46,896 nt of DNA, from IMG/VR virus record IMGVR_UViG_3300020169_000026; one strand, written 5' to 3'. This document shows, in pieces, positions 335-45,561 of the stretch. This DNA is from a virus. The notes under the pieces are model-generated. The model saw nothing but the letters and a program-made list of their open reading frames with translations, was not told where the DNA came from and made no database searches. Position 1 is the stretch's first letter. The number at the start of each line of letters is the position of its first letter. Position numbers and translations under genes: made by a program.

Positions 335-651
335 TATATACTTCCTTCTGCTTGTCTATTAATTTCCACTGAGGGGGTATCTTCTTGTCCCTCTTGTTCT
401 ACAACGTAATTCCACTCGGCTTCCATGTCAATACTGTATGGTGGTAGCATCGTGAGTGCATGTGTATTGAAGGCGACAAAATTAGATATGCCTATACTAT
501 TCTCTAGTGCATACTTTCCACTGAGGTACTTAGCTGACTGTTCAGCTTCTTCTAGCACTCTCTTACGTCCATCTAAAACTGTAACGCCTTTGCCTTTACC
601 TTTGTTTACACCTGCTACTTTATATGTTTTATTTTCGTCTCTACTGCTCAT
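334..651 (-). CDS. Hypothetical early protein
   Basis: 105-aa ORF in the tightly packed leftward operon, abutting its neighbours. Confidence 0.7.
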   Translation of the reverse strand: MSSRDENKTYKVAGVNKGKGKGVTVLDGRKRVLEEAEQSAKYLSGKYALENSIGISNFVAFNTHALTMLPPYSIDMEAEWNYVVEQEGQEDTPSVEINRQAEGSI

Positions 652-663
652 GTTATTATCCTT

Positions 664-816
664 TTAAAGCAACTGGTTATCTATGGTTTGCTGTTCGTAG
701 CACTCTTCACATATGTCAAGATCAGTTAGTTGTTCGAGATCAACCTCTTGTTCACAGTTAATACAGAATATTTTATTCTCTTCTAGCTCGACTACATAAT
801 TACCTATTCTACTCAT
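664..816 (-). CDS. Small zinc-ribbon protein (CxxC...CxxC)
   Basis: The track ORF is 664..849. An internal ATG at 816 has a strong SD (AAGGAG 7 nt upstream) and sits just after the stop of the upstream gene. The Cys motifs are FCINCEQ...ICEECYEQ. Confidence 0.7.
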   Translation of the reverse strand: MSRIGNYVVELEENKIFCINCEQEVDLEQLTDLDICEECYEQQTIDNQLL

Positions 817-817
817 G

Positions 818-1132
818 TTATTCTCCTTCTTTAAATGAATACTCATCATACAACGTAGGTATTCTTATACGCCTTACAACTCCGTCCTGATGCTCTTGTA
901 ACACTGATTCAGCAAAACTTATACAGCCTACACCTACAAAACCATACTCAGGAGCTTCTTCATACGCCTCGTGATATACTTTTATTAGCTCCACATACAA
1001 CTCATGTGGTATCTCATCGTTTAACAAGCCCTTAGTTAGTTCTGTCTCTGTCTTGTAAACCTTATTCCCATCGGGGGGTCTAACGAACTGTCCAGTCTCA
1101 GGGTCAATCGGTGGTATCTTATCTCCGCTCAT
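818..1132 (-). CDS. Hypothetical early protein
   Basis: 104-aa ORF with an ATGA overlap to the 1129..1317 gene. Confidence 0.7.
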   Translation of the reverse strand: MSGDKIPPIDPETGQFVRPPDGNKVYKTETELTKGLLNDEIPHELYVELIKVYHEAYEEAPEYGFVGVGCISFAESVLQEHQDGVVRRIRIPTLYDEYSFKEGE

Positions 1133-1317
1133 GTTACCACCATATATTCACGATGTACTGTAGAGGTACTTAGTAAATTATCGTTATGATCTAAGTCAAC
1201 ATCACTACAAGACATGATCTCTAAAGCTATCTCTTTAGCTTCGTCTTCACTGTCAGCTTTTATTCTAAGGTTCACGCCTTCTTCATAGTGTACGCCTACA
1301 TAATATTCTTTAGTCAT
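1129..1317 (-). CDS. Hypothetical early protein
   Basis: 62-aa ORF, operon-packed. Confidence 0.6.
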   Translation of the reverse strand: MTKEYYVGVHYEEGVNLRIKADSEDEAKEIALEIMSCSDVDLDHNDNLLSTSTVHREYMVVT

Positions 1318-1319
1318 TA

Positions 1320-1565
1320 TTATATTCCCTTCTCTATTATATCCATTACTTCATAAGTTAAGTTGTCAATCAAGTCATACACATCTTGTGGTTCATGGTA
1401 TTCAAACGGCTCCCATGCGTATTCCTTAATAAGTTCCATTTGCTCATCGTCTTCCAAATCCCAAAAGTCATCTTCTAAGTGTACTGCCAAGAAGTGTCCT
1501 GACAGTCTAACGAATAGCTTACGATACTTCTCATCTTTTTCTGATTCAATCATATAATCAGGCAT
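1320..1565 (-). CDS. Hypothetical acidic early protein
   Basis: 81-aa ORF that overlaps the end of the upstream gene by 8 nt. Confidence 0.65.
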   Translation of the reverse strand: MPDYMIESEKDEKYRKLFVRLSGHFLAVHLEDDFWDLEDDEQMELIKEYAWEPFEYHEPQDVYDLIDNLTYEVMDIIEKGI

Positions 1566-1824
1566 TGTTATTCTCCTTTGCTAAGTATTCCAAATTAAAC
1601 CAATGTCCATGTGATTCCAGATAACTAAACTGTCCATCACTTTGTACGTGTAAATAGTGTACGCCATACTTACGATCTTTGCTAACCGCAAACCTGTTTC
1701 CATTGATACCTAACTTGTTAAGCATCTTGTTAGCATTGTCAACTATCTCTTGTGCTGTATACTCTTCACTAGGCTCTTGCAGTTCTATCCACACACCCAT
1801 AGTTGTTAGTTTTTGTTTACTCAT
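1558..1824 (-). CDS. Hypothetical early protein
   Basis: 88-aa ORF with an AGGAG SD upstream of the ATG at 1824. Confidence 0.7.
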   Translation of the reverse strand: MSKQKLTTMGVWIELQEPSEEYTAQEIVDNANKMLNKLGINGNRFAVSKDRKYGVHYLHVQSDGQFSYLESHGHWFNLEYLAKENNNA

Positions 1825-1834
1825 TATACTTCTC

Positions 1835-1978
1835 CTAATCTCTATTACCGATTATTGGCGAATGCCCATCTCTAACGCATTTGTCAGCTAAATCTGATGC
1901 TTCTTTATATGTTAACCAATGGTCATTTACTTCCTTACCATCGACCCAAACGCTATATGCTTTTCTTGTATCACTCAT
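1835..1978 (-). CDS. Small hypothetical protein (47 aa, not in the ORF track)
   Basis: Hand translation gives MSDTRKAYSVWVDGKEVNDHWLTYKEASDLADKCVRDGHSPIIGNRD. Its ATG overlaps the stop of 1971..2195 (ATGAGTGA) and it fills an otherwise empty gap. Confidence 0.6.
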   Translation of the reverse strand: MSDTRKAYSVWVDGKEVNDHWLTYKEASDLADKCVRDGHSPIIGNRD

Positions 1979-2195
1979 TGTTATTCTCCTCTTCATATTT
2001 ATCTAATGCACGTTGACAGTCTTTATGATCTACATACATTTCTATTTCTCTTTGATGACAGTAAGCTGTACCTGATAACTCTCCGTTAATCATTTCTATT
2101 TCTTCTATGTCTACTTCCATCTCGCCATAACCTAAGTCTAAATAGACTCTAGTGTCTACGTGCCTACCATATTTTGTTCTAACTATTTCTAACAT
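1971..2195 (-). CDS. First gene of the leftward operon, hypothetical
   Basis: The track ORF is 1971..2225. The internal ATG at 2195 is preceded by AAAAGGAGAATCATA (strong SD), so the shorter 74-aa form is preferred. Confidence 0.65.
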   Translation of the reverse strand: MLEIVRTKYGRHVDTRVYLDLGYGEMEVDIEEIEMINGELSGTAYCHQREIEMYVDHKDCQRALDKYEEENNNE

Positions 2196-2215
2196 TATGA
2201 TTCTCCTTTTATGTT

Positions 2216-2244
2216 TTCTTAACATGTTCCCACGTAGGGGTCAA
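2216..2244 (-). promoter_or_regulatory. Candidate leftward sigma70-type promoter (TTGACC-N17-TAAGAA with an upstream TG)
   Basis: On the minus strand the sequence reads TTGACC cctacgtgggaacatgt TAAGAA. It lies about 20 nt upstream of the SD of the first leftward gene, and its spacer is one copy of the CCCACGTAGGG motif. The -10 element is weak. Confidence 0.3.
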
Positions 2245-2304
2245 CTATTAATTCCCACGTAGGCTATTTCCCACGTAGGGGGTCTACTAATTCCCACGTA
2301 GGGG
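2227..2304 (+). repeat. Four tandem copies of TTCCCACGTAGG(GG)
   Basis: Copies are at 2227..2240, 2252..2263, 2268..2282 and 2291..2304. Each can form a CCC-ACGTA-GGG mini-hairpin. Confidence 0.9.
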
Positions 2305-2305
2305 T

Positions 2306-2456
2306 GTGACATAATTACCACTGTAATATAAATGCAACAGTGACATAAATGCAACGTGATATTATTACAACTTGACGTGACATATTTGCAACGTGACATA
2401 AATGCAACTGATTCTGTATTTTGTATTTTATCTATTGACAGTGACATAATTGCAAC
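2306..2456 (+). repeat. Array of seven 16-bp iterons, GTGACATAAATGCAAC
   Basis: Units are at 2306, 2323, 2340, 2356, 2377, 2393 and 2441. Six lie nearly head-to-tail, and the seventh forms the spacer of the candidate rightward promoter. Confidence 0.9.
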
Positions 2457-2464
2457 ACCATAAT
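2435..2464 (+). promoter_or_regulatory. Candidate rightward sigma70-type promoter (TTGACA-N18-CATAAT)
   Basis: TTGACA is at 2435..2440 and CATAAT at 2459..2464. Iteron 2441..2456 occupies the spacer. Confidence 0.35.
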
Positions 2465-2528
2465 TGATTCGTTTGTATGTGATTCGTTTCTACTACACAT
2501 TGTTATCATGCTGTCAAGTCATAGCTGG

Positions 2529-2639
2529 TATGCGTTCAATGCATATGTGACAATTTAACACTTGACTCCAATGTTTATGATTCGTTCTTCAGGTCTATGG
2601 TATGCATAAATTGCATGTTAGGTATGCGTCTAGTGCATA
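2529..2639. promoter_or_regulatory. Three operator-like palindromes, (GG)TATGC-N7-GCATA
   Basis: O1 is 2529..2545 (tatgc gttcaat gcata). O2 is 2601..2617 (tatgc ataaatt gcatg). O3 is 2623..2639 (tatgc gtctagt gcata). Confidence 0.6.
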
Positions 2640-3035
2640 GATATGTTTTGATTCGGCATCAGTCCATTTTAACACGAAACCGCGATTTGAGTCAACCCAC
2701 TTTATAACGCTCAAATTAGCCCCTCTGACGGCCTTTAGGTCTTTAGCGTGGTGTAACCCATAAAATTGATTCGGCGGCGTTACAGCGAGTCAAGTATAAA
2801 CGACATGCAGCAGAGTCATTATTTTTGAGTTTGTGACAATATAGCCACATGGATTCAGCTTCGATTCAGCTTGCAAACCCCTTATTTATATAGTAATAAT
2901 AGTATATCGAGTCCCCTTGGCTTCCTTGCAGTGATTCGATCCGACTTATAGGCGTTAGTCCCTGCGAGTTTTTGAGACCCAATTTGGGCTTAGATAAAAA
3001 CGCACTCTGGCCTCTGGTTTTAAGCGGTTTAAGTC

Positions 3036-3052
3036 TATGCCAATTAGGCATA
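3036..3052. promoter_or_regulatory. Fourth TATGC-N7-GCATA palindrome
   Basis: The sequence tatgc caattag gcata lies about 55 nt upstream of the first rightward ORF. Confidence 0.5.
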
Positions 3053-3106
3053 CTGACGAGTCGCAGTATCGACGAAACTTAAACACTGATATAAGGATTT
3101 ATCAAA

Positions 3107-3313
3107 ATGACACTTAAAGAAACATATACAAAGAAGTCTCTATTTTTATCACAAGCGCAAAGTTTTAACTTTGAGTTAAATGAAGAACAAATACTTGCCA
3201 AGGCATTAGATGTTGGTTTCGTTGTTAAAATTGGTGAAGACTTATATGAAGTAAATGTCAATTATGATGAAGTATCACAAGACGATATTGATTACCAAAA
3301 CGACACTTATTAA
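3107..3313 (+). CDS. Hypothetical early protein
   Basis: 68-aa ORF with an AAGGA SD inside the conserved AACACTGATAWAAGGATT box. Confidence 0.65.
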   Translation: MTLKETYTKKSLFLSQAQSFNFELNEEQILAKALDVGFVVKIGEDLYEVNVNYDEVSQDDIDYQNDTY

Positions 3314-3344
3314 ATTATTAACACTGATAAAAGGATTCTATATT

Positions 3345-3575
3345 ATGAAACATTATACTAACAAGATTTTTACTGACTCTCTAAAATCTGAATGGGTTAA
3401 CTACGCGGTTTTCCCGTCAACTTATACTGATAAGCAAATATTAAATTTTGCCGAGTCTCAAAATTGGCCTTTAGAGTCCTATTCGGATTCACATGGTTAT
3501 AGTAGTAAATTCAATTTGACTCGCAAGGGGTCGAGAGTCTTGTTTTCAGTTTTCGGAGGTTTAAATTATGTTTAA
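3345..3575 (+). CDS. Hypothetical early protein
   Basis: The track ORF is 3255..3575. The internal ATG at 3345 is preceded by the same AACACTGATAAAAGGATT box plus SD, so the 76-aa form is preferred. Confidence 0.65.
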   Translation: MKHYTNKIFTDSLKSEWVNYAVFPSTYTDKQILNFAESQNWPLESYSDSHGYSSKFNLTRKGSRVLFSVFGGLNYV

Positions 3576-3723
3576 GTTCTTAATTACTCTTTTAATAAGT
3601 ATCTTAATACTTGCCGCTTTTATCTTGTCTTGGTTAATGGCCTCTTTAGGGGATAACCTAGGCGCTATGCTAATTCTAATTGTGCCTATATATGGCGCGT
3701 TTATTCTATATAGGGAATCTTGA
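3568..3723 (+). CDS. Small membrane protein (51 aa, not in the ORF track)
   Basis: Hand translation gives MFKFLITLLISILILAAFILSWLMASLGDNLGAMLILIVPIYGAFILYRES, with two hydrophobic helices. There is a GGAGG SD, and the ORF overlaps the upstream stop. Confidence 0.6.
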   Translation: MFKFLITLLISILILAAFILSWLMASLGDNLGAMLILIVPIYGAFILYRES

Positions 3724-3724
3724 T

Positions 3725-3931
3725 ATGAATACTTATTTAATTACTTGGCGTGAAAAATTTTCTATGGAACGCGATGATGAAGGCAATCTATATAAAACTA
3801 GTTTCTTTGAACAACCATTTAAGGGCAACTATCCGAGTCGTGCGATTCAAAAATGGTCTAGACTCTGGAATTTAAAGGAGTCGGATTGTATGGAATTTAA
3901 GATTGAACTTATTAATGAAAAGGAGTCTTGA
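3725..3931 (+). CDS. Hypothetical early protein
   Basis: The track ORF is 3680..3931. The ATG at 3725 directly follows the upstream stop (TCTTGATATG junction), giving 68 aa. Confidence 0.6.
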   Translation: MNTYLITWREKFSMERDDEGNLYKTSFFEQPFKGNYPSRAIQKWSRLWNLKESDCMEFKIELINEKES

Positions 3932-3932
3932 T

Positions 3933-4199
3933 ATGCGTTATAAAATTACATCTCCTAGGGTCTTTATAGACACGCTTGAATCGTTTTTCGACGAACATGG
4001 TGGTTATAAATCTTATATTGTTAACGCTTTTTCAGATTACATGAAAACAGATTATGAGGATTACGTTGGTAGTTTCACAGACGCTTGTAACATTCGTGAT
4101 ATATTGAACGATTATTATGATCTAAACTTACCACCATTGGACGCGATTCAGTGGAGTCAATATGTCAATCACAATGCTAGTTACTTGGGAGAATCTTAA
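3933..4199 (+). CDS. Hypothetical early protein
   Basis: The track ORF is 3903..4199. The ATG at 3933 has an AAGGAG SD and the same TCTTGATATG junction, giving 88 aa. Confidence 0.65.
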   Translation: MRYKITSPRVFIDTLESFFDEHGGYKSYIVNAFSDYMKTDYEDYVGSFTDACNIRDILNDYYDLNLPPLDAIQWSQYVNHNASYLGES

Positions 4200-4403
4200 A
4201 TGTATGATGTAAATAAACTTGATGAAATAATTATTGGTGGTGTTGATCCAAGGGACTACCCTGATTTTTGCGATGCTTATATTGAGTCTGCTACCTATGA
4301 CGGGGTTATAATGACATATAAGCAACTTGATGAACTTAACGAACAAGAACCCTCGTTTGTTAATGAATACGCTTTATTAGATTTTTTAGGGGAGTCTAAA
4401 TAA
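4200..4403 (+). CDS. Hypothetical early protein
   Basis: 67-aa ORF whose start abuts the upstream stop. Confidence 0.65.
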   Translation: MYDVNKLDEIIIGGVDPRDYPDFCDAYIESATYDGVIMTYKQLDELNEQEPSFVNEYALLDFLGESK

Positions 4404-4561
4404 TGACACGCAATGAATTTTTCGAATTATGTGAAGAGCATTTAATTGATCCGTCTATAGCTCTTGAGAATGAGAACATAGCAAAAACTTTAGGTGTAGC
4501 TATAAAGAATAGGATTATAGAAAAAGCAAAGATTACACTTATACTAGAAGAGGAATTTTAA
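4403..4561 (+). CDS. Small hypothetical protein (52 aa, not in the ORF track)
   Basis: Hand translation gives MTRNEFFELCEEHLIDPSIALENENIAKTLGVAIKNRIIEKAKITLILEEEF, with a TAATG overlap to the upstream gene and a GGGGAG SD. Confidence 0.6.
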   Translation: MTRNEFFELCEEHLIDPSIALENENIAKTLGVAIKNRIIEKAKITLILEEEF

Positions 4562-4563
4562 TC

Positions 4564-5304
4564 ATGCCACGTAAAACTATTATATTATATCAAGGTGCGA
4601 GTCTTATAAATGGTCAACCTATTGTTGCATTAGCTCAATCAGATTCGACTAATAGCAAAACGGGTAACATGATTCAAACGTTTATCTTAGACGCTACTGT
4701 TGACCCTCTAGAGGCCTCTAGGACGGGACGGGACTCTTCTATCTGTGGTAGTTGTCCCCATAGAGGCACGCCAAATAATAACGATAAAGGCCAAGCGACA
4801 AATAGAACTTGTTATGTGACGTTAGCTCATGCCCCTTTAGGTAAATATAAGGCATATAAAAAGGGCGTGTATGGTACTAAGACCGCGACACTTAAAGAGA
4901 TTGAATCTTTTGGTAGTTTACAAGGGGTGCGTTTGGGTACATATGGAGATCCTTGCGCTGTCCCTAATGACATTTGGAAAGCCCTAACTATTAAAGCGTT
5001 ATATTCAACCGCTTACACTCATGCCGCTATCAACCCAATGCCAGAGTCAATCATGACTAGCACTGATAATCTTAAGCAATCTATTGATGCATGGAGTCGT
5101 GATGAAAGGACGTTTAGAGTCATATCTCATGTTGATCAACTATATAAGAGGCGTGAAATATTATGTCCAGCTAGTGAAGAGATGGGCAAGCGTGCGACGT
5201 GTGCTAGTTGTAAGTTATGCGGCGGTAGTAAAGTAAATGCTAAATCGATTGCTATTGTTGCACATGGAACAAGTAAACGTAAGGCAAAGGAGTTAGTGCA
5301 ATGA
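4564..5304 (+). CDS. Cys-rich hypothetical protein (possibly metal-binding)
   Basis: 246-aa ORF with Cys clusters ICGSCPHRG...CYV and CPASEE...CASCKLCGG. I do not recognise the family with confidence. Confidence 0.75.
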   Translation: MPRKTIILYQGASLINGQPIVALAQSDSTNSKTGNMIQTFILDATVDPLEASRTGRDSSICGSCPHRGTPNNNDKGQATNRTCYVTLAHAPLGKYKAYKKGVYGTKTATLKEIESFGSLQGVRLGTYGDPCAVPNDIWKALTIKALYSTAYTHAAINPMPESIMTSTDNLKQSIDAWSRDERTFRVISHVDQLYKRREILCPASEEMGKRATCASCKLCGGSKVNAKSIAIVAHGTSKRKAKELVQ

Positions 5305-5471
5305 ATATTTATGTAGGTTATTTTAATTTAGCGGGTAAGTTACATTGCTTTAGGGAATGCAAGAGTCTTAGTGAAGCGAATCTTTTCATCGATAACAGGA
5401 GAAACAACAGTAAATTAATCATAGCTAGAATATTATCTAATGAGGAAAGGGGTTTATATGTGAAACGATAG
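5301..5471 (+). CDS. Small hypothetical protein (56 aa, not in the ORF track)
   Basis: ATGA overlap with the stop of 4564..5304. Hand translation gives MNIYVGYFNLAGKLHCFRECKSLSEANLFIDNRRNNSKLIIARILSNEERGLYVKR. Confidence 0.45.
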   Translation: MNIYVGYFNLAGKLHCFRECKSLSEANLFIDNRRNNSKLIIARILSNEERGLYVKR

Positions 5472-5480
5472 GTAGTGAAA

Positions 5481-5525
5481 GCATAGGTTGAGTCGGTAGT
5501 ACCTCCCAAACGACTCAGCTTATGC
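5481..5525 (+). other. Long stem-loop (15-bp stem including 2 G-U pairs, 15-nt loop)
   Basis: The arm gcataggttgagtcg (5481..5495) pairs with cgactcagcttatgc (5511..5525). Confidence 0.7.
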
Positions 5526-5820
5526 CTTGCCGATTCGCCCTCCGAGTGCAACAGATTTTTACGAATGTCAAGGGAACCCTTAGAATCATACAGCTGATTC
5601 GCGGAGGGGTGTGGCTACCCATATGATTTCCAACATAAAAAAAAATAAAGTAGGTTCGAAGGGGTGTCATATTGTCACAGGTACGGCGGCTATATCATTT
5701 TCCCACGGAGTCATTACAAGAGAACGACACAAGAAGGCGACATTGGCTACCCACTTAAGTAAGCTGTCAAGAAAAAAGATTTGTTATATATCAACGACTT
5801 ATAAAATAGTTAAAATACTT

Positions 5821-5856
5821 ACTTCACACTTTTGTATAATAAGACATTATATATAC
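5821..5856 (+). promoter_or_regulatory. Promoter-like element A (ACTTCA-N18-CATTATATATA), upstream of the late operon
   Basis: About 30 of 35 nt match element B (41530..41564, minus strand), and the spacing is the same as in element C. A perfect TATAAT also lies at 5835..5840. Confidence 0.55.
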
Positions 5857-5862
5857 ATAAGA

Positions 5863-39677: not shown

Positions 39678-40063
39678 TCGTCGGGTATCCTTTTGTCTGC
39701 ATATAGAAAGTTATTCTTCTCACACCACATAGCATATGTAGTCTTAGATCCTTTACGAATCTTATTCTTACTGTTGCTGAATACAAACCTTATGTCAAGG
39801 TCAGGGTTTTGTTCTCTAACCTTAAGGTGCTTCTTCCTATCGTCTGGAACGAACCTTCCTTTTGATTCAATTATGATACCATTGGGTAGTATAAAGTCAG
39901 GGGTGTAAGTCTTGTTCTCTACTAACTTCCAGTTTATCTTAACTGTCTCGTAGCCAAAGTCTACACCCCTGTCCTTGAGGTCTTTCGATATGACATCCTC
40001 AAGCCCAGAACGATAACCATTCTTTATAGCTTGTTGTCGGATCTTACTTTTGGTGGTTGCCAT
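39665..40063 (-). CDS. T7 gp3-like endonuclease I (Holliday junction resolvase)
   Basis: YRSGLEDVISKDL...YTPDFILPNGIIIESKGRFVPDDRKKHLKVREQNPDLDIRFVFS...IPDEWIK aligns closely with T7 endonuclease I. Confidence 0.9.
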   Translation of the reverse strand: MATTKSKIRQQAIKNGYRSGLEDVISKDLKDRGVDFGYETVKINWKLVENKTYTPDFILPNGIIIESKGRFVPDDRKKHLKVREQNPDLDIRFVFSNSKNKIRKGSKTTYAMWCEKNNFLYADKRIPDEWIK

Positions 40064-40743
40064 ATCTCTTCCTCTTCTCTCCTAAGCCATAACAGCCTAG
40101 CGTTTTCTATTACTCTATCTTCATTTCCATCGTAGGCTTTAACGACACAATCCCAGAGATCTTCTTCTGTCTCTGCATCATCTAATATCTTCTTAGCCTT
40201 AACTGGACCAACACGAAACAGACCTACTATATTGTCTGCTGTATCTCCTGTTAGTATCTGAGTATAGAAGAACTTAATTCCCCCGAAGGGGGTTACTTCT
40301 AGATAGTCGCCTCTAACTATGTTAAAGTGCCAACAAGGTAACTGTAGCATGTCTTTATCTATAGAGGCTACACAAGCCTTGTAATCTAGTCTGGCGGCTT
40401 CTTTAGCAATGAGGTCATCGGCTTCCTCTCCTTTACTTATGATTGCTTGATACTTGCTTTCCATGTGATCTCTAGCGGTCTGCAAGTGTCTAGGTTTCTG
40501 AACGCTTTTTCTATTTCCCTTGTAGGGGTAGGACTTAGCTATATCATCTCTGAAGTTACCTTTACCTGTAAGGTACACAGAATAATCTAAACCTATCTCT
40601 GGAAATAATACGGTGCTATCTAAAATGAATTCTATGAGGTCATCAACTTTATCTCTTGTGTCTTGTGACCCCATCTGTTCAGTGGAGAAGGCCGCACGAT
40701 AAGCAATTATGTCTCCATCGATTAGAACCTTCCCCATATCCAT
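40024..40743 (-). CDS. T7 gp6-like 5'-3' exonuclease (FEN family)
   Basis: LIDGDIIAY, YKGNRK..KP, EADD, SIDKD, GDTADNIVG and LWDCV are blocks shared with T7 gp6. Confidence 0.75.
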   Translation of the reverse strand: MDMGKVLIDGDIIAYRAAFSTEQMGSQDTRDKVDDLIEFILDSTVLFPEIGLDYSVYLTGKGNFRDDIAKSYPYKGNRKSVQKPRHLQTARDHMESKYQAIISKGEEADDLIAKEAARLDYKACVASIDKDMLQLPCWHFNIVRGDYLEVTPFGGIKFFYTQILTGDTADNIVGLFRVGPVKAKKILDDAETEEDLWDCVVKAYDGNEDRVIENARLLWLRREEEEIWQPPKVRSDNKL

Positions 40744-40944
40744 TTAAGTGTCACCCCACATCATCTCACCATCTTCGCACTCGAAACCTACAGACTTAAC
40801 ATAGGTGAAACCAAAAGCATGTGCGGCTTCAGCAAATAGTTGAGCTAACTCGTGGGCTTCTGTAATATCGTCCCTACTCATATCAACGCTTCCGCTGTAA
40901 CCATCATCATCTTTTTCCATGTACGCATTAACACTTACTCTCAT
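40744..40944 (-). CDS. Hypothetical acidic protein
   Basis: 66-aa ORF, operon-packed. Confidence 0.55.
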   Translation of the reverse strand: MRVSVNAYMEKDDDGYSGSVDMSRDDITEAHELAQLFAEAAHAFGFTYVKSVGFECEDGEMMWGDT

Positions 40945-40953
40945 AGTCTTTCC

Positions 40954-41502
40954 TTATACAATAAATAGCTCATCATCTTCTGTGATAGCATTGTTTTCTT
41001 CATATGGTACGTGATCTGTTACACCTACATTTAGTAGACGAACACCTGCACCTTGAGCATAAACCTCAAACTGAACTTTAGCTTTAGTGCCATTACCTAA
41101 AGCACCATCCTCAGAGAAGCTCCATAGTCTTTTCTTCTCTCTTCCTTCAGTTAAGTTTACTACTGTAGGTGCGCCACCATAGTCTATTGTAACAGGCTCT
41201 CCATTACGATCAGTAAAGTTTTTTACATCAGATATCTTACGTTTTATCTTCATGTACTTACCTATACCAAGGTCTGCATTACCTTGTCTTATCCTATCAC
41301 TATTCATAGGATGTAAGTCTAAACCCTCTTTCTCTAGGTGTCCTATCTGTGCTTCTTCAGTAAAGTAAGCGTTGGTAATATACTGCCCACCTTGACTGTG
41401 TACTGCTTGTGCGGCGCGTGGTCCATCTGCACTTCCCATATCCGCATTTTCTGGAAATACTTTCGCATATTCTAGTATCATATCCATTGTGTATTTAGCC
41501 AT
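40954..41502 (-). CDS. T7 gp2.5-like ssDNA-binding protein (DUF2815-like)
   Basis: 182 aa with an acidic, aromatic C-terminal tail (TEDDELFIV). It lies within the T7-like replisome, and promoter-like element B lies upstream. Confidence 0.6.
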   Translation of the reverse strand: MAKYTMDMILEYAKVFPENADMGSADGPRAAQAVHSQGGQYITNAYFTEEAQIGHLEKEGLDLHPMNSDRIRQGNADLGIGKYMKIKRKISDVKNFTDRNGEPVTIDYGGAPTVVNLTEGREKKRLWSFSEDGALGNGTKAKVQFEVYAQGAGVRLLNVGVTDHVPYEENNAITEDDELFIV

Positions 41503-41529
41503 GTCGAGTTCCTTTCGGCTGTTGGTACT

Positions 41530-41564
41530 TATATATAATGTCTTATTTAGACAAAGTGTGAAGT
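41530..41564 (-). promoter_or_regulatory. Promoter-like element B (ACTTCA-N18-CATTATATATA)
   Basis: The minus strand reads ACTTCAcactttgtctaaataagaCATTATATATA. It lies about 35 nt upstream of the SSB start codon, and the leader carries an AAAGGA SD. Confidence 0.55.
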
Positions 41565-41579
41565 AGAAATAAAAATAAA

Positions 41580-43415
41580 TTAGTGTATGTCTGCGTAGGT
41601 CTTACCGAACTGTGCATCTACACCTAATGGTACATTGAGTTCTAACTTTTGATTAAGGTTTTCAATAGCTTGCTCCATTGTAGTTTTTGTTTGCTCTTCG
41701 TTACCTTCTGGTACGAGTGCGATGATTTCGTCGTGGAATTGTCCGATGGTTTTAATTCCGTAGCGACGACATAAAGATACCCAACTGTCAAAACAAAATA
41801 CTCCTGTTCCTTGATTTAATGTAGAGAACTTATCCTTGTCACTACGTAAGCTGTACCAGAAGTTTGATACAGGATTCAGTAGCCACATAGACCCAAATAA
41901 GTCTCTTGTACGTGCTGTATTAGCTACCTTATCTACTGACCAATTACGTGACCAGAAGGCTTCTAGCAATACTGTAGCCTCTTCTTTACTCATGCCTGTA
42001 TTACGTGACAAAGTAGAAGATCCTACACCATACGTAGCACTATAGTTAACTACTTTATAGTTCTTACGTAGGGCTGACAGGGATCTCTCTCCACTGTTAT
42101 GTTTGTCTATGTCCTCTTGTGTAATTATACCTGCGTGTTTAGCTAAGTCTAAGTGTGGATCAAAGCCTTCCTTAGACATCTCCTCTACGTAATCAGGGTC
42201 TAATGGCTTCATGTAGTGACGCTTAGTTGTATCCTCTAGTGAGGTCATATCAGCACCACATAATGTATATCCATCTGGACAAGTCAAACAACCTCTTATC
42301 TCTTTACCATACGGCTTATCTACAGCAGGTAAGTTAACGAGAGGCTTGGCATGTTTAAACCTAAGAGTATTAGTTAGACCTGCTATGTTAGCCTGTACGT
42401 ATCCATCTACTTGTGCATTAACCATAGCTTTGATAACACCTATACGATGAGACAATACAGATAGACCATCAAGTAAGTTTATAGCAGGTTCTTTATCTGC
42501 TAGTGCTTTTACTGATCTACACAACTCTGCATCCTTACGTACTTGTTCTAGCTTTCTAGTGTCGCCTGTAACCTTATCACGTAAGAACTTATATGTACGT
42601 GGTTGCCAACCTAACGAGAATAACCAGTCCTTAACTTGATCTGTACTGTTAGGGTTAGCTCTTTCTTCACCTACCTTAACTGTAAGAGATTGTGTAGACT
42701 GTGGTTGTTTCTGCTCTTTACATAGTGCTACCCACTTCTCTCCATTAGATGATAACGACCCATCCTTTTTGTGCATAACTTTAGGTTTGTTACGTACTGC
42801 TGTAACAATCTTACGTGGCATAGCATCAGCAAGTAATTCAGTCTTCTCAGCCTTTAGGCTTTCCCATGTAGCCAGATAATCTTCTGCTTTACCTACGTCC
42901 AATTTCCACTGTAGGGACTCTTGCTCTTTAGCACATTCCATCTTGAATGTCATGTAGTCAATAAGTCTATCCCTATTTCCACTGTCGGGGTATAGCTTGT
43001 CTAGCTTTATACTCAGGTCACGCCATAGTCTTACGTTGATCCTTACATCTTCTTCACACCTGTATTGATATTCTTCTGGACTTAAGTTCTTCCAGTCATT
43101 GATCTCAGGTTTAGGTACACCATACATCTCACCATACTGTGCTAGTCCATGCTTCTGTAGGTGGTGGTTTATGTACCAAGCTAAAGGTAGTGTATCTATA
43201 ATCCTAGCGTCTACTTTTATGTCTAGGATCTTTTCCACTACAGGTATATCATACCTAACTATGTTGTGACCTATAAGTGTGTCAGCGTTAAGAAAGAATG
43301 TTCTCATCTCTTCATAGTCAAAGGTAGATTGTATCTGACCCTCTTCATTTGTGTAAGATACTACGTGTATCTTTGTGGGGTTGAACCCATCTGTTTCTAT
43401 ATCAAATACTGGCAT
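41580..43415 (-). CDS. Family A DNA polymerase with 3'-5' exonuclease domain (T7 gp5-like)
   Basis: FDIETDG (Exo I), KVVNYSATYG (motif B-like) and QFHDEII (motif C). 611 aa. Confidence 0.9.
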   Translation of the reverse strand: MPVFDIETDGFNPTKIHVVSYTNEEGQIQSTFDYEEMRTFFLNADTLIGHNIVRYDIPVVEKILDIKVDARIIDTLPLAWYINHHLQKHGLAQYGEMYGVPKPEINDWKNLSPEEYQYRCEEDVRINVRLWRDLSIKLDKLYPDSGNRDRLIDYMTFKMECAKEQESLQWKLDVGKAEDYLATWESLKAEKTELLADAMPRKIVTAVRNKPKVMHKKDGSLSSNGEKWVALCKEQKQPQSTQSLTVKVGEERANPNSTDQVKDWLFSLGWQPRTYKFLRDKVTGDTRKLEQVRKDAELCRSVKALADKEPAINLLDGLSVLSHRIGVIKAMVNAQVDGYVQANIAGLTNTLRFKHAKPLVNLPAVDKPYGKEIRGCLTCPDGYTLCGADMTSLEDTTKRHYMKPLDPDYVEEMSKEGFDPHLDLAKHAGIITQEDIDKHNSGERSLSALRKNYKVVNYSATYGVGSSTLSRNTGMSKEEATVLLEAFWSRNWSVDKVANTARTRDLFGSMWLLNPVSNFWYSLRSDKDKFSTLNQGTGVFCFDSWVSLCRRYGIKTIGQFHDEIIALVPEGNEEQTKTTMEQAIENLNQKLELNVPLGVDAQFGKTYADIH

Positions 43416-43978
43416 TACAGTAATCCTAACTCTTTGTTTGTTTTTGCGTACTCCCTTTCAAGAGGGGTTAGGTTTTCTTCTAACCACTTATCATATAGCA
43501 CTGCGGCTTCTTTCTCAGTTTTACTCACTCCTATGTAAAACTGTTTACCATTTACAGATGTCATAGCTCTATATACTCCATAATTATTTATATAAACACC
43601 TTTATATTTTGAAGCTGACCCCTTCCTTGGCTTTTGATTTTTTAAGTTAAGTGCGTTTGTAGTAGGCCTCAAGTTTTCTATCCTGTTATCTACCCTGTTT
43701 CCGTTTATGTGATCTAGCATACTAGGTACTTCTCCATAGTTAAGAAACCAAACAATTCTGTGCGCTCTATAATTATGCCTATCACCTTTAACAGAATAAT
43801 TTGCAATATTTAAGTATCCATTACTAAGTGTACCTGCCACACTACCTGCGGCTCTTATTTTATTATTAGTACTACTTGCACACCCTTTCCAAATAAGATC
43901 ACCAGTCTCAGGTACATAAGATAAGTTGTCTGTAATCCACTGTTTTTCTTCGTCACTCCACTCTCTCGCTTTGACCAT
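43415..43978 (-). CDS. Free-standing HNH endonuclease with an AP2 DNA-binding domain
   Basis: HRIVWFLNYGEVPSMLDHINGNRVDNRIENL is an HNH_3 motif, and YKGVYINNYGVYRAMTSVNGKQFYIGVSKTEKEAA is an AP2 motif. Confidence 0.85.
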   Translation of the reverse strand: MVKAREWSDEEKQWITDNLSYVPETGDLIWKGCASSTNNKIRAAGSVAGTLSNGYLNIANYSVKGDRHNYRAHRIVWFLNYGEVPSMLDHINGNRVDNRIENLRPTTNALNLKNQKPRKGSASKYKGVYINNYGVYRAMTSVNGKQFYIGVSKTEKEAAVLYDKWLEENLTPLEREYAKTNKELGLL

Positions 43979-45561
43979 TATAATATCTCCCTCAACATAA
44001 ATGTGTCTAGATTAAATGCTAACTTACCTGCTTGTCCTTCTTCTGAACAAGGTCTATTCTTCTCTACCTTTAGGTAAGTCGTGTTACGTTCTTCCATATT
44101 GTCAGCTTCCTTATCTCTGTGTAGATCTATAATAACAGATGCACGTTGACCTATCATCTTACAGTACTTAGGATCTCCATTCTCATTAGTGTGAGCAATG
44201 GTTACAATCCCTACGTTTAACTCTGCCGCTAACTTAGATAGTCTGATAGACAAGTCAGCTAACATAGCTTCTTTACTTTCTTCTGATGTACCTACAACTA
44301 CGTCTTGTATAGGCTCAAAGAATACAAACTTACAGTCACAAGCCTGACTAAAGAATCTTATCTGATCTATTAGTTCGTCTGTACCTTGACCATCACCTAA
44401 GTAGAATTGATAGAAGTTCTCATCTTTAGTTATGTTACCAATAGCTTCTCTCACAAGGCTATCAGCTTCCTTCTCTTCTATCAGGTCACGTCTTGTCAGG
44501 TTGTCACCTACCTCATACGACACAAGCCCTAGTAGTGACCTTAATTTAGTCTCCTCTAAGTGCCATGCGGCAATAGGTATACCTTGCTTTAGCATACTGT
44601 ATTCCATGTACCTCATAAGCTCAGTCTTACCTATACCTGTAGGTGCTTTAAACACTGTGAAGTGTCCTTGCATAAGACCTAAGATCTTATCATCTAATGC
44701 TACAATACCTGTAGGGTAGTAGACGTGTTCTGGTGTATCCTCATACAACTTAAGGAACTGGTCAGCAGTATTCAGAATGTTCTCTGGTGTATGCTTGACT
44801 GGCTTCCACCATAGGTTCTTAAAGTCTGCACCTTTACCTGCCTGTAAAAAATCATTGGCATCTTTATATTCACCATGTTGCATACGATAGATCTTATTAG
44901 GAAACAATCTAGCCATACGATCAGCTAAAGCATTACCTGCCTCGTCATTATCTACTGACAGTATGATCTTCTCAAAGCTACCTAACCAGTCCTTACAGTT
45001 CTCCCATAGCTTCTTAGATGGTGTAGCTGAAGGCAACGACACAACAGGGTTAGTATACTGGCTCTTAAGCATCTGTGAAGCTGATAGAGCGTCTAGTTCA
45101 CCTTCTGTTATTGTAACCATCTTACTACAACCAGCAGGGTATAGGTTCATACCGAATAGTTCATCACCTTTGAAACCATCTTTAGCATAGAAAGCCTTCT
45201 CATCTAGCTTACGTACCTTAATTCCCCCAGAGGGGTATATGTACTCTTGTCTATCGTCATACGTTAGTACGTTATAATCTTTCATTGTACCTAACATAAT
45301 CCCACGTAGGGGGGTGTAATCACCTTCTGATCTGTCTTCAATTTTCTTAGGTGTAAACTCTGTTACGTTCATATAGTCACTTTCTTTCTTTGTCGGGTAT
45401 TTATCTTTTGCCCAAGTGTGCATCTCTTGTCTTGAGGGATAACCACTTCCACAAGAATGACACTTACCAAACCCTTTGGTGTTATATGAGAACGCATTGC
45501 TAGAGCCACACGACACATAAGGACAAGGTTGATGTATTATATCTTGATATACTATAGTCAT
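43978..45561 (-). CDS. Bifunctional primase-helicase (T7 gp4-like)
   Basis: It has an N-terminal Zn finger (CPYVSCGS...CHSCG), a TOPRIM motif (ITEGELDALS) and a DnaB-type Walker A motif (APTGIGKTE). Confidence 0.9.
   Translation of the reverse strand: MTIVYQDIIHQPCPYVSCGSSNAFSYNTKGFGKCHSCGSGYPSRQEMHTWAKDKYPTKKESDYMNVTEFTPKKIEDRSEGDYTPLRGIMLGTMKDYNVLTYDDRQEYIYPSGGIKVRKLDEKAFYAKDGFKGDELFGMNLYPAGCSKMVTITEGELDALSASQMLKSQYTNPVVSLPSATPSKKLWENCKDWLGSFEKIILSVDNDEAGNALADRMARLFPNKIYRMQHGEYKDANDFLQAGKGADFKNLWWKPVKHTPENILNTADQFLKLYEDTPEHVYYPTGIVALDDKILGLMQGHFTVFKAPTGIGKTELMRYMEYSMLKQGIPIAAWHLEETKLRSLLGLVSYEVGDNLTRRDLIEEKEADSLVREAIGNITKDENFYQFYLGDGQGTDELIDQIRFFSQACDCKFVFFEPIQDVVVGTSEESKEAMLADLSIRLSKLAAELNVGIVTIAHTNENGDPKYCKMIGQRASVIIDLHRDKEADNMEERNTTYLKVEKNRPCSEEGQAGKLAFNLDTFMLREIL

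What the first reader, a model, noticed from the sequence alone, without database searches (positions are those of the whole stretch)
359..45318. Dispersed AATT(Y)CC-N(4-8)-GGGGT(A/C)TA hairpin motif found almost only on the + strand, inside genes of both orientations
Good copies on the + strand are at:
- 19..38 (the same sequence as 46788..46807)
- 359..380
- 1063..1083
- 25443..25462
- 28820..28838
- 39458..39478
- 40275..40295
- 40511..40532
- 42973..42994
- 43449..43470
- 45219..45240
- 45297..45318

Partial copies are at 13381, 14750, 19730 and 22998. I found only one clear copy on the - strand (9079..9098) and one weak one (about 45711).

In the leftward-coded region 35.2-46.8 kb, most + strand GGGG runs lie in this context, whereas CCCC runs there do not.

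In leftward genes the motif is always read as x-Pro(CCC)-x-x-Gly-Asn/Ile in unrelated proteins (YPDSGN, YPSGGI, TPFGGI, YPYKGN, IPHEGN, RPPDGN). It therefore uses rare G/C-rich codons in an AT-rich genome, which points to selection at the DNA level.

A motif held on one physical strand regardless of gene direction fits a single-strand function. Candidates are site-specific nicks of the T5 or phiKMV type, ssDNA initiation or priming signals, or packaging and recombination signals.
Basis: partly seen in the sequence, partly recalled or inferred. Interest (0 to 1): 0.72.

Follow-up and report, generated by a model that had tools for sequence, protein, structure and literature searches.

The report
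One-strand phage motif with promoter arrays
A roughly 20-base signal occurs about 35 times on a single DNA strand of this marine phage and its relatives, stacked in tandem over the early promoter, and it most resembles a one-directional "stop/operator" site system or a set of site-specific nick sites, though its function is untested.

Summary
The window is a circular 46,769-bp genome of the CRP-6 roseophage group.

**Motif and counts**
- The motif is bipartite on the + strand: (W)ATTTCC-AYYG-NN-GGGG(T).
- TTCC-N6-GGGG occurs 11 times on + and 0 on −. TTTCCAYYG/TTCCCACG occurs 25 on + and 0 on −. Codon-preserving shuffles give about 0.5 and 2 genic hits.
- A matrix built only from relatives' copies finds 17 on + and 0 on −.
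- In 80 related contigs the counts are 127:1 and 197:6. CRP-6 shows the same pattern.

**New points**
- Four to eight tandem copies sit over the sigma70-like promoter of the leftward (early/replication) operon.
- Full sites occur only in early genes and arrays. Late genes carry only the half-site TTTCCAYYG.
- 30–50% of protein-compatible positions are used.
- The hairpin is weak. The constant reading frame reflects protein compatibility.

**Mechanism (inferred, not shown)**
- Best reading (about 0.35): asymmetric operator sites for a phage factor that represses the early promoter and acts directionally on leftward transcription, like mycobacteriophage stoperators.
- Main rival (about 0.2): T5/tf/phiKMV-type nick sites.
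- Priming signals, RNA elements, Chi-like sites and sigma promoters are less likely.

The parts
2224..2306 (+). Tandem array of four copies (2224-2242, 2249-2267 lacking the G run, 2265-2283, 2288-2306). Consensus wAATTCCCACGTAGGGGT. It lies directly upstream of the first leftward gene.
   Evidence: Sequence read; register. Homologous arrays of 4-8 copies occur in CRP-6 and in 29 related loci.
2216..2244 (-). Putative sigma70-type early promoter firing leftward: -35 TTGACC (2244-2239), a 17-nt spacer formed by motif copy 2224-2242, and a weak -10 TAAGAA (2221-2216). The SD AAGGAG and an ATG at 2195 follow.
   Evidence: Read. The same layout, TTGAC[CA]-N16-18-TAnnnT with a motif copy as the spacer, is found in 13 of 29 array-bearing loci, including CRP-6. 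Function is inferred, not shown.
18..36 (+). Full site CATTTCCATCGAAGGGGGT. The same DNA appears again at 46787-46805. It lies in the 5' end of the small leftward gene 46646..44.
   Evidence: (19.9 bits).
361..379 (+). Full site AATTTCCACTGAGGGGGTA in leftward gene 334-651.
   Evidence: 24.0 bits.
513..531 (+). Half-site ACTTTCCACTGAGGTACTT in leftward gene 334-651.
1062..1080 (+). Full site TTATTCCCATCGGGGGGTC in leftward gene 818-1132.
   Evidence: 15.7 bits.
1695..1713 (+). Half-site TGTTTCCATTGATACCTAA in leftward gene 1558-1824.
5697..5715 (+). Half-site ATTTTCCCACGGAGTCATT in the non-coding stretch 5472-6058 upstream of terS. Relatives L042 and L067 have a full site at the same place.
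9284..9302 (+). Half-site in late gene 9144-9515. The position is conserved in L008 and L073.
   Evidence: 8.2 bits.
10232..10250 (+). Half-site in late gene 9526-10794.
13381..13399 (+). Half-site TAATTCCCACGATAGTGTA in late gene 13112-14911.
14750..14768 (+). Half-site TATTTCCCACGTCAGGACT in late gene 13112-14911.
15121..15139 (+). Half-site in late gene 14921-16186.
   Evidence: 11.3 bits.
15274..15292 (+). Half-site in late gene 14921-16186.
19730..19748 (+). Half-site TAATTCCCACGCAGAGTTT in late gene 19464-19844.
20191..20209 (+). Half-site in late gene 19844-20293.
   Evidence: 8.3 bits.
22233..22251 (+). Half-site TTTTTCCCACGGTGCAAAA in late gene 21408-22364.
22998..23016 (+). Half-site CATTTCCCACGTATGGTCT in the coding extension before the tape-measure-like gene.
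25443..25461 (+). Short-spacer variant TAATTCCTCTGGGGTCTTT (TTCC-N3-GGGG) in late gene 24961-25548.
   Evidence: The same variant, CCCCAGTGGAA, occurs in CRP-6.
25760..25778 (+). Half-site in late gene 25545-26144.
26446..26464 (+). Half-site in late gene 26126-26542.
28820..28838 (+). Short-spacer variant AAATTCCACTGGGGTCTAT in late gene 26520-29216.
32782..32800 (+). Half-site in late gene 32675-33073.
35026..35044 (+). Copy with a degenerate G run, TAATTCCCTCTCAGGTAGG, in the 3' untranslated end of the leftward operon beside the bidirectional terminator.
35085..35103 (+). Full site AATTTCCCTCTCAGGGGCT in the same 3' untranslated region.
   Evidence: 15.6 bits.
39458..39476 (+). Full site with a 5-nt spacer, CATTTCCTTCGTGGGGTAT, overlapping the start codon of leftward gene 38690-39460.
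   Evidence: 15.9 bits.
40122..40140 (+). Half-site CATTTCCATCGTAGGCTTT in the exonuclease gene 40024-40743.
   Evidence: 17.1 bits.
40275..40293 (+). Full site TAATTCCCCCGAAGGGGGT in the exonuclease gene.
   Evidence: 12.4 bits. It has the strongest hairpin of all sites, -4.7 kcal/mol.
40512..40530 (+). Full site TATTTCCCTTGTAGGGGTA in the exonuclease gene.
   Evidence: 16.4 bits.
42901..42919 (+). Near-full site AATTTCCACTGTAGGGACT in the DNA polymerase gene 41580-43415.
   Evidence: 18.5 bits.
42974..42992 (+). Full site TATTTCCACTGTCGGGGTA in the DNA polymerase gene. It is orthologous to the CRP-6 site at 6607.
   Evidence: 28.9 bits, the best in the window.
45219..45237 (+). Full site TAATTCCCCCAGAGGGGTA in the primase-helicase gene (peptide YPSGG). 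It is conserved in all 10 orthologues compared.
45296..45314 (+). Lineage-specific full site ATAATCCCACGTAGGGGGG in the primase-helicase gene. Its spacer is identical to this genome's array copies, and it arose through amino-acid changes.

Best explanation
**What it is.** The motif is the asymmetric, two-part recognition site of a sequence-specific DNA-binding factor of the phage.

**How it would work.**
- High-occupancy tandem arrays lie over the sigma70-type promoter(s) of the leftward early/replication operon(s). One copy forms the -35/-10 spacer and one lies in the leader next to the ribosome-binding site. These act as operators.
- The dispersed copies all point the same way relative to leftward transcription. 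They act directionally on RNA polymerase moving leftward: on early transcripts inside the early genes, and on antisense read-through inside the late genes. This is how stoperators work in cluster A mycobacteriophages.
- The likely use is timed shut-off or insulation of leftward transcription without hindering rightward late transcription.

**What is shown.** The motif is real, selected at the nucleotide level, strictly oriented and family-wide. It forms arrays at promoter-like sequences and comes in full and half classes.

**What is inferred.** The conserved two-domain ECF-like sigma protein at 45652-46155 is only a candidate.
For: **Arrays at promoters**
- Arrays of 4-8 nearly identical copies sit at the start of leftward operons in the window, in CRP-6 and in 29 related loci.
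- In 13 of those loci, from diverged lineages, one copy is exactly the spacer of TTGAC[CA]-N16-18-TAnnnT. Another copy lies between the predicted start site and the SD/ATG.
- The L066 lineage has two arrays, each upstream of a leftward operon. That fits promoter control better than a single origin or pac site.

**Orientation**
- The array copies and all dispersed copies share one orientation relative to leftward transcription.

**Site architecture**
- The site is bipartite, with halves one helical turn apart, and each half is separately dispensable. This is what a monomer with two DNA-binding domains recognises in the solved stoperator complex (PMC9283540).

**Precedent**
- The L5-type repressor binds more than 20 asymmetric 13-mers, at promoters and dispersed. 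Their orientation follows transcription, and reversing a site abolishes repression.

**Full versus half sites**
- Full sites are selected in early genes (7 of 13 compatible positions) but not in late genes (0 of 25). The half-site is selected in both blocks (7 of 13 and 8 of 29). CRP-6 shows the same split.
- This fits strong binding where leftward transcription is the target and only weak binding inside late genes.

**Lineage-specific drift**
- Array copies are homogenised within each genome.
- This genome's array variant (CACG) makes up 6 of 21 dispersed sites here, against 4 of 54 in genomes whose arrays are mainly of the ACTG type.
- The new site at 45296 copies the array spacer. This suggests a co-evolving, phage-encoded reader.

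**Phage specificity**
- The array pattern is at chance level in 596 Gb of bacterial genomes: 41 single hits, against my own estimate of about 50 expected. It occurs in 116 IMG/VR contigs.
Against: - No reader protein was identified.
- No homologue of a cluster A repressor, or of any repressor family, was found among the roughly 45 window proteins scanned.
- In the DNA sampled, the window and the L066 lineage share only primase-helicase, DNA polymerase, terS, terL and portal. A conserved reader would therefore have to lie elsewhere or evolve beyond recognition.
- True stoperators flip strand with gene direction and lie mostly between genes. Here the sites stay on one physical strand and lie mostly inside genes.
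- It is unclear why weak antisense-blocking half-sites in late genes would be selected as strongly as observed.
- This is a lytic-type podovirus group with no known repressor biology.
- There are no expression data. The promoters are consensus predictions only, and the -10 in the window itself is poor (TAAGAA).
Confidence: 0.35

Rival explanations
1. Site-specific single-strand interruptions (nicks) in virion DNA, as in T5/BF23, phiKMV-like phages and the tf/LUZ24 group. A phage nickase would cut one strand at the motif, with full sites as major nicks and half-sites as minor nicks.
For: The genome-wide pattern matches the only described cases of such motifs in roughly 45-kb podoviruses.
- In tf, 14 copies of TACT/RTGMC lie only in the top strand, although the genes form two opposed blocks.
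- 11 of those 14 lie in the early half.
- Positions are similar among relatives, and the consensus drifts between them (PMC3517423).
- The phiKMV-type consensus is also bipartite with a variable spacer, CGAC-N5-CCTACTCCGG.

In this window the sites are on one strand only. They are denser in the early block: about 1 per kb against 0.55 per kb. They are conserved at orthologous positions.
Against: - Tandem arrays of 4-8 sites spaced 16-27 bp apart over promoters are not a feature of any known nick system. The nick model does not explain them.
- The sites are far more degenerate than in tf.
- The only HNH endonuclease in the window (43415-43978) is absent from CRP-6 and from all 80 related loci, so it cannot be a family-wide nickase.
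- Contig ends are not enriched at the sites: 2 of 128 ends lie within 50 nt, against 2.8 expected. This is a weak test.
- Physical nicks could not be tested.
Confidence: 0.2
2. Strand-specific priming or replication-start signals read on single-stranded + strand DNA by the T7-type primase-helicase. The array would lie beside the origin (the GTGACATAAATGCAAC iterons), and the dispersed sites would mark the lagging-strand template of a rightward fork.
For: - The primase-helicase has a Cys4 zinc-binding domain.
- It is one of the few proteins shared by every motif-bearing lineage sampled.
- The phage has a T7-like replication set without an RNA polymerase.
- Use of every protein-compatible position suggests a function that depends on site density.
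- Spacing of about 1-2 kb is in the range of Okazaki fragments.
- The template reads ...AYYG, so a primer would start with purines.
- The array abuts an iteron block.
Against: - Known primases of this family read trinucleotides (established for T7: 5'-GTC). No primase is known to need a motif of 9-20 nt.
- The base after GGGGT is not conserved.
- Two arrays in the L066 lineage, each at an operon start, do not fit one origin.
- The model does not explain why the G run is absent from late-gene sites.
- Four-fold-site GC skew shows no replication-strand component.
Confidence: 0.12
3. An RNA element in leftward transcripts (5'-CCCC-NN-CRRUGGAAAU-3'), read by a nuclease or an RNA-binding or translational regulator, comparable to T4 RegB or RegA acting on early mRNAs.
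For: - All early-gene sites are in the mRNA sense.
- One array copy lies in the predicted 5' leader next to the SD.
- In several relatives a copy spans the SD-to-ATG interval (AAGGAGACCCCTACGATGGAAAA). Window site 39458 overlaps a start codon.
Against: - Array copies upstream of the promoter would not be transcribed.
- Late-region half-sites are antisense to the genes, yet they are about 25-fold enriched (8 realised against 0.31 expected) and family-wide (62:6).
- There is no stable or covarying structure.
- No Rfam family matches.
Confidence: 0.08
4. Promoters, or promoter elements, for the phage's own ECF-like sigma factor. The GGAAA(T) half would serve as a -35 element directing leftward transcription, possibly also helping transcription-driven genome entry.
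For: - A conserved two-domain sigma protein is encoded at 45652-46155.
- ECF -35 elements are typically GGAAC-like (established knowledge).
- T7-type phage promoters are about 20 bp long and lie on one strand.
Against: - Nothing is conserved 16-18 nt downstream of GGAAAT in 273 aligned sites: information is below 0.17 bit at every position outside the motif.
- Array periods vary from 16 to 27 bp, so neighbouring copies cannot supply a fixed -10.
- The copy nearest the first gene leaves no room for a start site before the SD.
- No sigma homologue was found near the arrays in the L066 lineage.
- No phage RNA polymerase gene was found.
Confidence: 0.05
5. A Chi- or KOPS-like polar signal read by a host DNA translocase or nuclease such as AddAB. 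It would protect the entering end or rolling-circle tail of the phage DNA, with the array as a first barrier.
For: - The motif has a strict single orientation, is selected for density and is G-rich at its 3' end.
- Correctly oriented Chi sites are known to protect rolling-circle DNA in E. coli (established knowledge).
Against: - Known Chi and KOPS sites are 5-8 nt and are fixed by the host.
- Here the element spans 20 bp, varies between closely related phages and is homogenised within each array.
- The array pattern is not enriched in bacterial genomes.
- Over-representation of the core in host genomes was not tested.
Confidence: 0.05

Closest known systems
Operator/stoperator system of cluster A mycobacteriophages (L5, Bxb1, TipsytheTRex; PMC9283540)
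   Same: - An asymmetric site read by one factor.
- Copies at the early promoter plus more than 20 dispersed copies per genome.
- Strict orientation relative to the transcription that is controlled.
- A two-part site that fits a two-domain monomer.
   Different: - The sites keep one physical strand in both gene blocks, so only leftward transcription would be targeted.
- Most sites lie inside coding sequence.
- Tandem arrays of 4-8 copies are present.
- Full and half classes are partitioned between early and late genes.
- The host phage is a lytic-type podovirus.
- No homologous repressor was found.
Localized single-strand interruptions of T5/BF23, phiKMV-like and tf/LUZ24-like phages (PMC3517423)
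   Same: - A motif of 9-19 bp found only on one strand, whatever the gene direction.
- More copies in the early half.
- Positions conserved among relatives.
- A consensus that drifts between relatives.
- A similar genome size and a layout of two opposed gene blocks (tf).
   Different: - No tandem arrays are known in those phages.
- Their sites are nearly identical, whereas these are degenerate and two-class.
- No nicks have been demonstrated here.
- No candidate nickase is conserved.
T7-type phage promoters and ECF sigma promoters
   Same: - About 20 bp long, many copies, one strand.
- A GGAAA-type element like an ECF -35.
- The phage encodes a sigma factor.
   Different: - There is no phage RNA polymerase.
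- There is no conserved -10 at any fixed distance.
- The sites would be antisense to one gene block.
Iteron/operator arrays at plasmid and phage control regions (for example R1 parC-ParR and P1 C1 operators; from my own knowledge, not checked here)
   Same: - Direct repeats flanking and overlapping a promoter.
- For P1, asymmetric operators dispersed over a genome.
   Different: Those systems show no genome-wide, single-strand, intragenic, density-selected distribution.
Chi and KOPS polar sequences of bacterial chromosomes
   Same: They are orientation-dependent, over-represented and selected for density.
   Different: - They are host-determined 5-8-mers.
- They do not form tandem arrays.
- They are not lineage-specific.

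Membership tests
Cluster A mycobacteriophage stoperator system | Asymmetric site present at the early lytic promoter and at more than 20 dispersed positions | tested here: met
   An array overlaps the predicted early promoter, and about 30 dispersed copies are present.
Cluster A mycobacteriophage stoperator system | Site orientation follows the direction of transcription in both genome arms | tested here: not met
   All sites stay on one physical strand. They are sense to leftward genes and antisense to rightward genes.
Cluster A mycobacteriophage stoperator system | Dispersed sites lie in short intergenic spaces | tested here: not met
   Most lie inside coding sequence.
Cluster A mycobacteriophage stoperator system | Homologous immunity repressor (HTH plus stoperator domain) | tested here: not met
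   No repressor family matched any of the roughly 45 window proteins scanned with PHROGs or Pfam. Late structural proteins were not all scanned.
Cluster A mycobacteriophage stoperator system | Orientation-dependent block of transcription elongation | not testable with these tools
   This needs reporter or transcript-end mapping experiments.
Phage genomes with localized nicks (T5, phiKMV-like, tf/LUZ24-like) | Ligatable single-strand interruptions at fixed positions in virion DNA | not testable with these tools
   Only assembled sequence is available. Contig ends are not enriched at the sites, which is a weak proxy.
Phage genomes with localized nicks (T5, phiKMV-like, tf/LUZ24-like) | Consensus present on one strand only, irrespective of gene direction | tested here: met
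   17 on + and 0 on − at 10 bits or more; 25:0 for the half-site; 127:1 and 197:6 in relatives.
Phage genomes with localized nicks (T5, phiKMV-like, tf/LUZ24-like) | Near-identical short consensus at all sites | tested here: inconclusive
   The core TTTCC, YG and GGGG are conserved, but the spacer and either half may vary.
T7-type single-subunit RNA polymerase promoters | Phage-encoded single-subunit RNA polymerase | tested here: not met
   None appears in the CRP-6 annotation or among the window proteins scanned.
ECF sigma-dependent promoters | -35 and -10 elements separated by a fixed spacer of 16-17 nt | tested here: not met
   No position outside the 20-bp motif is conserved in 273 aligned sites.
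N4-type hairpin promoters and other hairpin signals | Stable stem of 5-7 bp with a 3-nt loop | tested here: not met
   The mean folding energy is -1.9 kcal/mol, and only 2-3 of 13 full sites form a stem of 4-5 bp.
Chi/KOPS-type host polar sequences | Over-representation and skew in the host chromosome | not tested
   The host is unknown. Only the tandem pattern was scanned in bacterial genomes, where it is at chance level.

The most novel reading that the evidence does not exclude
The element would be a previously undescribed kind of genome-wide polar signal in an abundant group of marine lytic phages. It would be a two-part, strand-fixed code written into every protein-compatible position. 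Through it, one factor would distinguish the two transcription (or replication) directions on a genome with opposed gene blocks. Full sites plus promoter arrays would silence or insulate the early direction. Half-sites would police antisense transcription across the late genes. An alternative of comparable novelty is a sequence-specific 'priming code' for a T7-type primase-helicase.
Probability: 0.2. Interest if true: 0.85.

Novelty: new variant of a known kind. Interest (0 to 1): 0.66.

Why it matters
CRP-6-type phages are reported to be among the more abundant roseophage groups in coastal viromes (PMC6918029). Nothing is known about how they time gene expression or replicate.

- This motif is the strongest non-coding signal in their genomes. 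It constrains codon choice, and even amino acids, in essential genes.
- If it is a stoperator-like system, directional transcription blocking would be shown well outside temperate actinobacteriophages, and in a lytic programme.
- If the sites are nicks, they would extend the still-unexplained T5/tf/phiKMV phenomenon to marine phages. They would offer an isolate (CRP-6) with more than 30 predicted sites and a clear comparative data set for finding the enzyme.
- Either way, the site list gives exact positions for cheap, decisive experiments.

Tried and rejected
- **Hairpin.** Folding of 31 sites shows weak or no structure.
- **Reading frame as a translational signal.** The frame bias is explained by which frames are protein-compatible.
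- **HNH-AP2 endonuclease 43415-43978 as the nickase.** It is absent from CRP-6 and from all 80 related loci.
- **Sigma promoter model.** I looked for a -10 at a fixed distance and for promoters formed by neighbouring array copies. There is no conserved flank, and array periods range from 16 to 27 bp.
- **sigma54, sigma32, Type I restriction, IHF and CtrA sites.** Rejected by inspection against consensus sequences from memory.
- **DnaA box.** TTTCCAC resembles TTATCCACA at 6-7 of 9 positions. However, the positions critical for DnaA are the variable ones here, and the G run is unexplained.
- **Antisense RNA made from the array pairing with early mRNAs.** In the window only 1 of about 12 early sites shares the array spacer.
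- **Contig ends at sites as a proxy for nicks or termini.** No enrichment.
- **Replication-strand asymmetry at four-fold sites.** There is no GC component. The AT difference could reflect expression level instead.
- **Intrinsic terminators.** Three motif sites are flagged as + strand terminator-like, but the total is no higher than in shuffles: 7 against 5.9.
- **Rfam and tRNA scans.** Nothing found.
- **Literature search for the motif words.** Only unrelated primer sequences were found.
- **Co-variation of reader candidates between the window and L008.** The arrays differ, but no single early protein stands out: identities are 86-100%.

Full report
**What the window is**

The first 127 bases repeat at the end, so this is a circularly assembled genome of 46,769 bp with 40% G+C. 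Its nearest described relative is Roseobacter phage CRP-6 (MK613348). The replication genes share about 73% nucleotide identity and TerL shares 91% amino-acid identity. CRP-6 is a podovirus that founded a separate, abundant marine group (PMC6918029).

Leftward genes occupy 35.2-46.77 kb and continue through 1-2.2 kb. They include:
- a T7-like replication set: primase-helicase with a Cys4 zinc domain, DNA polymerase, 5'-3' exonuclease and endonuclease I;
- ribonucleotide reductase;
- an ECF-like sigma factor;
- many small ORFs.

Rightward genes at 3.1-35 kb are small unknowns followed by terS, terL, portal and structural genes. No RNA polymerase gene was found.

Yes, and it can be sharpened.
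- The spacing is fixed. TTCC-N6-GGGG occurs 11 times on the + strand and never on the − strand, and other spacings are near zero.
- Shuffling synonymous codons within each gene leaves about 0.5 genic hits for the full pattern against 8 observed. It leaves about 2 for the half-site against 21 observed. Fewer than one hit is expected on the − strand.
- I built a weight matrix only from 86 array copies in other genomes, which avoids circularity. It scores 17 + strand and 0 − strand positions at 10 bits or more. Shuffles give 4.5 (mostly the unshuffled intergenic copies) and 0.2.
- 11 of the 15 + strand G runs in the leftward block lie in the motif.

**The motif is a property of the phage family**
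- In 80 TerL-anchored IMG/VR loci (711 kb), all oriented like the window, TTCC-N6-GGGG occurs 127 times on + and once on −. TTTCCAYYG occurs 197 times on + and 6 on −.
- In the late-gene parts alone the half-site ratio is 62:6.
- In CRP-6 the same element lies on the early-sense strand. It reads CCCC-N-CRRTGGAAA there, because the record is in the opposite orientation. There are 8 copies in early genes against 0.9 expected, and 4 in late genes against 0.5 expected.
- The tandem pattern occurs in 116 viral contigs. In 596 Gb of bacterial genomes it gives only 41 single, taxonomically scattered hits, against my estimate of about 50 expected by chance.
- No paper in the searchable library mentions the motif words in a relevant context.

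*(a) Tandem arrays.*
- Positions 2224-2306 hold four nearly identical copies directly upstream of the first leftward gene.
- CRP-6 has five copies at the equivalent place. 29 related loci have 4-8 copies with periods of 16-27 bp.
- In 13 of these loci, from diverged lineages, one copy is exactly the spacer of a sigma70-type promoter: TTGACC-N17-TAATCT, TAGAGT or TAGGGT. A further copy lies between the predicted start site and the ribosome-binding site, or spans the SD-to-ATG interval.
- In the window the -35 TTGACC is present but the -10 is poor.
- The more distant L066 lineage has two arrays, each upstream of a leftward operon.

*(b) Two site classes.*
- In early genes both halves are selected. 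7 of 13 protein-compatible positions are realised for CCCC-N6-GGAA and 7 of 13 for CRRTGGAAA, against 0.2-0.8 expected.
- In late genes only the half-site is selected: 8 of 29 positions against 0.3 expected. The full pattern is realised at 0 of 25 compatible positions.
- CRP-6 shows the same partition.

*(c) Direct evidence for selection.*
- In the primase 'YPSGG' site the Pro codon is CCC and the second Gly codon is GGA in all 10 orthologues (55-87% identity). Ser switches between TCT, TCC and AGC, and flanking synonymous positions vary.
- A second primase site, unique to this genome, arose through amino-acid changes. It copies this genome's own array spacer.

*(d) The reading frame.* The 'constant reading frame' is the frame in which suitable peptides exist.

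*(e) The hairpin.* It is weak or absent. The C/G complementarity is a by-product of the two conserved runs.

**What follows from the anatomy**
- Using a third to a half of all positions that proteins allow points to a function that depends on the number and orientation of sites. It does not point to a few exact locations.
- Homogenised arrays placed over promoters of leftward operons point to a factor that binds double-stranded DNA and controls those promoters.
- Two half-sites one helical turn apart, each partly dispensable, fit a monomer with two DNA-binding domains.
- This combination has one well-studied precedent. The L5-type repressors of cluster A mycobacteriophages bind an asymmetric 13-mer at the early promoter and at more than 20 dispersed 'stoperators'. 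Orientation follows transcription, and reversing a site abolishes repression. A crystal structure shows a monomer using two domains (PMC9283540).
- I therefore rank a stoperator-like, direction-specific control of leftward transcription first, at about 0.35.
- In this reading the arrays shut the early promoter. Full sites stop or hinder polymerases inside the early operon. The co-oriented half-sites in late genes weakly oppose leftward antisense transcription without impeding rightward late transcription.

**Why it is not a member of that family**
- Orientation does not flip with gene direction.
- The sites are mostly intragenic.
- There are tandem arrays.
- No homologous repressor was found.

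**The reader protein is unknown**
- The conserved 167-aa ECF-like sigma factor is a two-domain DNA-binding protein whose usual -35 target resembles GGAAA. Evidence for the assignment: source names of homologues; all best PDB profile hits are sigma region 4; the AF2 model has pLDDT 70; and the Foldseek top hits are almost all sigma factors, many of them ECF-type. No homologue was found near the arrays of the L066 lineage.
- In the DNA sampled, only primase-helicase, DNA polymerase, terS, terL and portal are shared with that lineage.

**Rivals**

*Nick sites (about 0.2).*
- They are the only described cause of one-strand motifs in comparable podoviruses.
- Phage tf is 46 kb with two opposed gene blocks. 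It has 14 nicks at TACT/RTGMC, all in the top strand, 11 of them in the early half. Site positions are conserved and the consensus drifts among relatives (PMC3517423).
- They do not explain the promoter arrays.
- No nickase candidate is conserved. The window's HNH-AP2 gene is a sporadic insertion.
- Nicks could not be tested. Contig ends are not enriched at the sites.

*Priming signals for the T7-type primase-helicase (about 0.12).*
- They would explain the strand and density dependence and the conserved reader.
- No primase is known to need such a long site. Two arrays and the full/half partition do not fit.

*An RNA element of leftward transcripts (about 0.08).* It fails to account for untranscribed array copies and for the selected antisense half-sites.

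*Sigma promoters (about 0.05).* They fail because nothing is conserved at any fixed distance from the motif.

*A host-read Chi-like signal (about 0.05).* It fits poorly with a 20-bp, lineage-variable, array-forming element.

About 0.15 remains for something not considered.

**Verdict**

The finding is a genuine, strongly selected, family-wide polar cis-element that has not been described. Its mechanism is unresolved by computation. The two leading models make opposite, cheaply testable predictions on the cultured isolate CRP-6. I place it as a new variant of a known kind: polar operator/stoperator sites or localized nick sites. There is a real chance, about 0.2, that it is a new type of direction-discriminating genome code.

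Noticed in passing
window 2000-6000 (for example 2466, 2481, 2579, 2650, 2768, 2933); also L059 1-200: GANTC, the CcrM-type methylation word, is extremely unevenly spread. 52 of the 103 sites lie in 2-6 kb, at 10-16 per kb, mostly as TGATTCG. The rest of the genome has about 1 per kb, roughly 3-fold below my composition-based estimate. In relatives a GATTC follows the -10 of the predicted early promoter directly (TAGAGT-GATTCG). The phage encodes a methyltransferase-like protein at 38152-38697 (PHROG match only).
   Followed up: partly
window 2306-2456: There are five to six iterons, GTGACATAAATGCAAC, found only here and next to the motif array. One forms the spacer of a near-consensus rightward promoter, TTGACA-18-CATAAT (2435-2464). 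They are conserved in CRP-6 as GTTGCAAGAATGTCAC. They may be an origin or a second operator set.
   Followed up: partly
window 45652-46155 (−): A 167-aa ECF-like sigma factor with sigma2 and sigma4 domains is conserved in CRP-6 (gp14, annotated as hypothetical) and in 10 other related loci. Its promoters are unknown.
   Followed up: yes
window 43415-43978 (−): An HNH_3 + AP2 endonuclease lies between the primase-helicase and DNA polymerase genes. It is absent from CRP-6 and from all 80 related loci, so it looks like a recent homing-endonuclease insertion.
   Followed up: yes
window 5472-6058: This roughly 590-bp non-coding stretch upstream of terS is conserved across diverged relatives. It has a sigma70-like promoter whose spacer carries a conserved GGGACCCT, and a long conserved leader (ACCCAC..ACATCTACAACATAAGAAA, CAACCATGACGAACCTTTCC, GGTCATGCCGATG). 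No Rfam family matches. ORF 5611-6099 is probably not a gene, and terS probably starts at 6059.
   Followed up: partly
window 22451-23187: The stretch after ORF 22451-22849 is coding in another frame up to the tape-measure-like gene at 23180. This resembles the programmed frameshift product of a tail assembly chaperone, which is odd for a phage described as a podovirus.
   Followed up: no
window 34958-35000: A strong hairpin with T and A runs on either side (AAAAGCCGTAGG...CCTACGGCTTTTTT) sits at the junction of the convergent late and early blocks. It is probably a bidirectional terminator. Two motif copies lie just inside the early side.
   Followed up: no
L066 8260-8560 and 5110-5240: A more distant lineage carries two arrays. 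One has about 8 copies interleaved with CCTGGC(TTA) repeats at the divergent junction. The other has 6 copies directly upstream of the primase operon and is followed by a terminator-like hairpin. The motif variant there is ATTTC(C/T)AYCG.
   Followed up: partly
window 1-127 = 46770-46896: There is an exact 127-bp terminal overlap. It is typical of a circular contig from a k=127 assembly, so the physical genome ends are unknown.
   Followed up: yes
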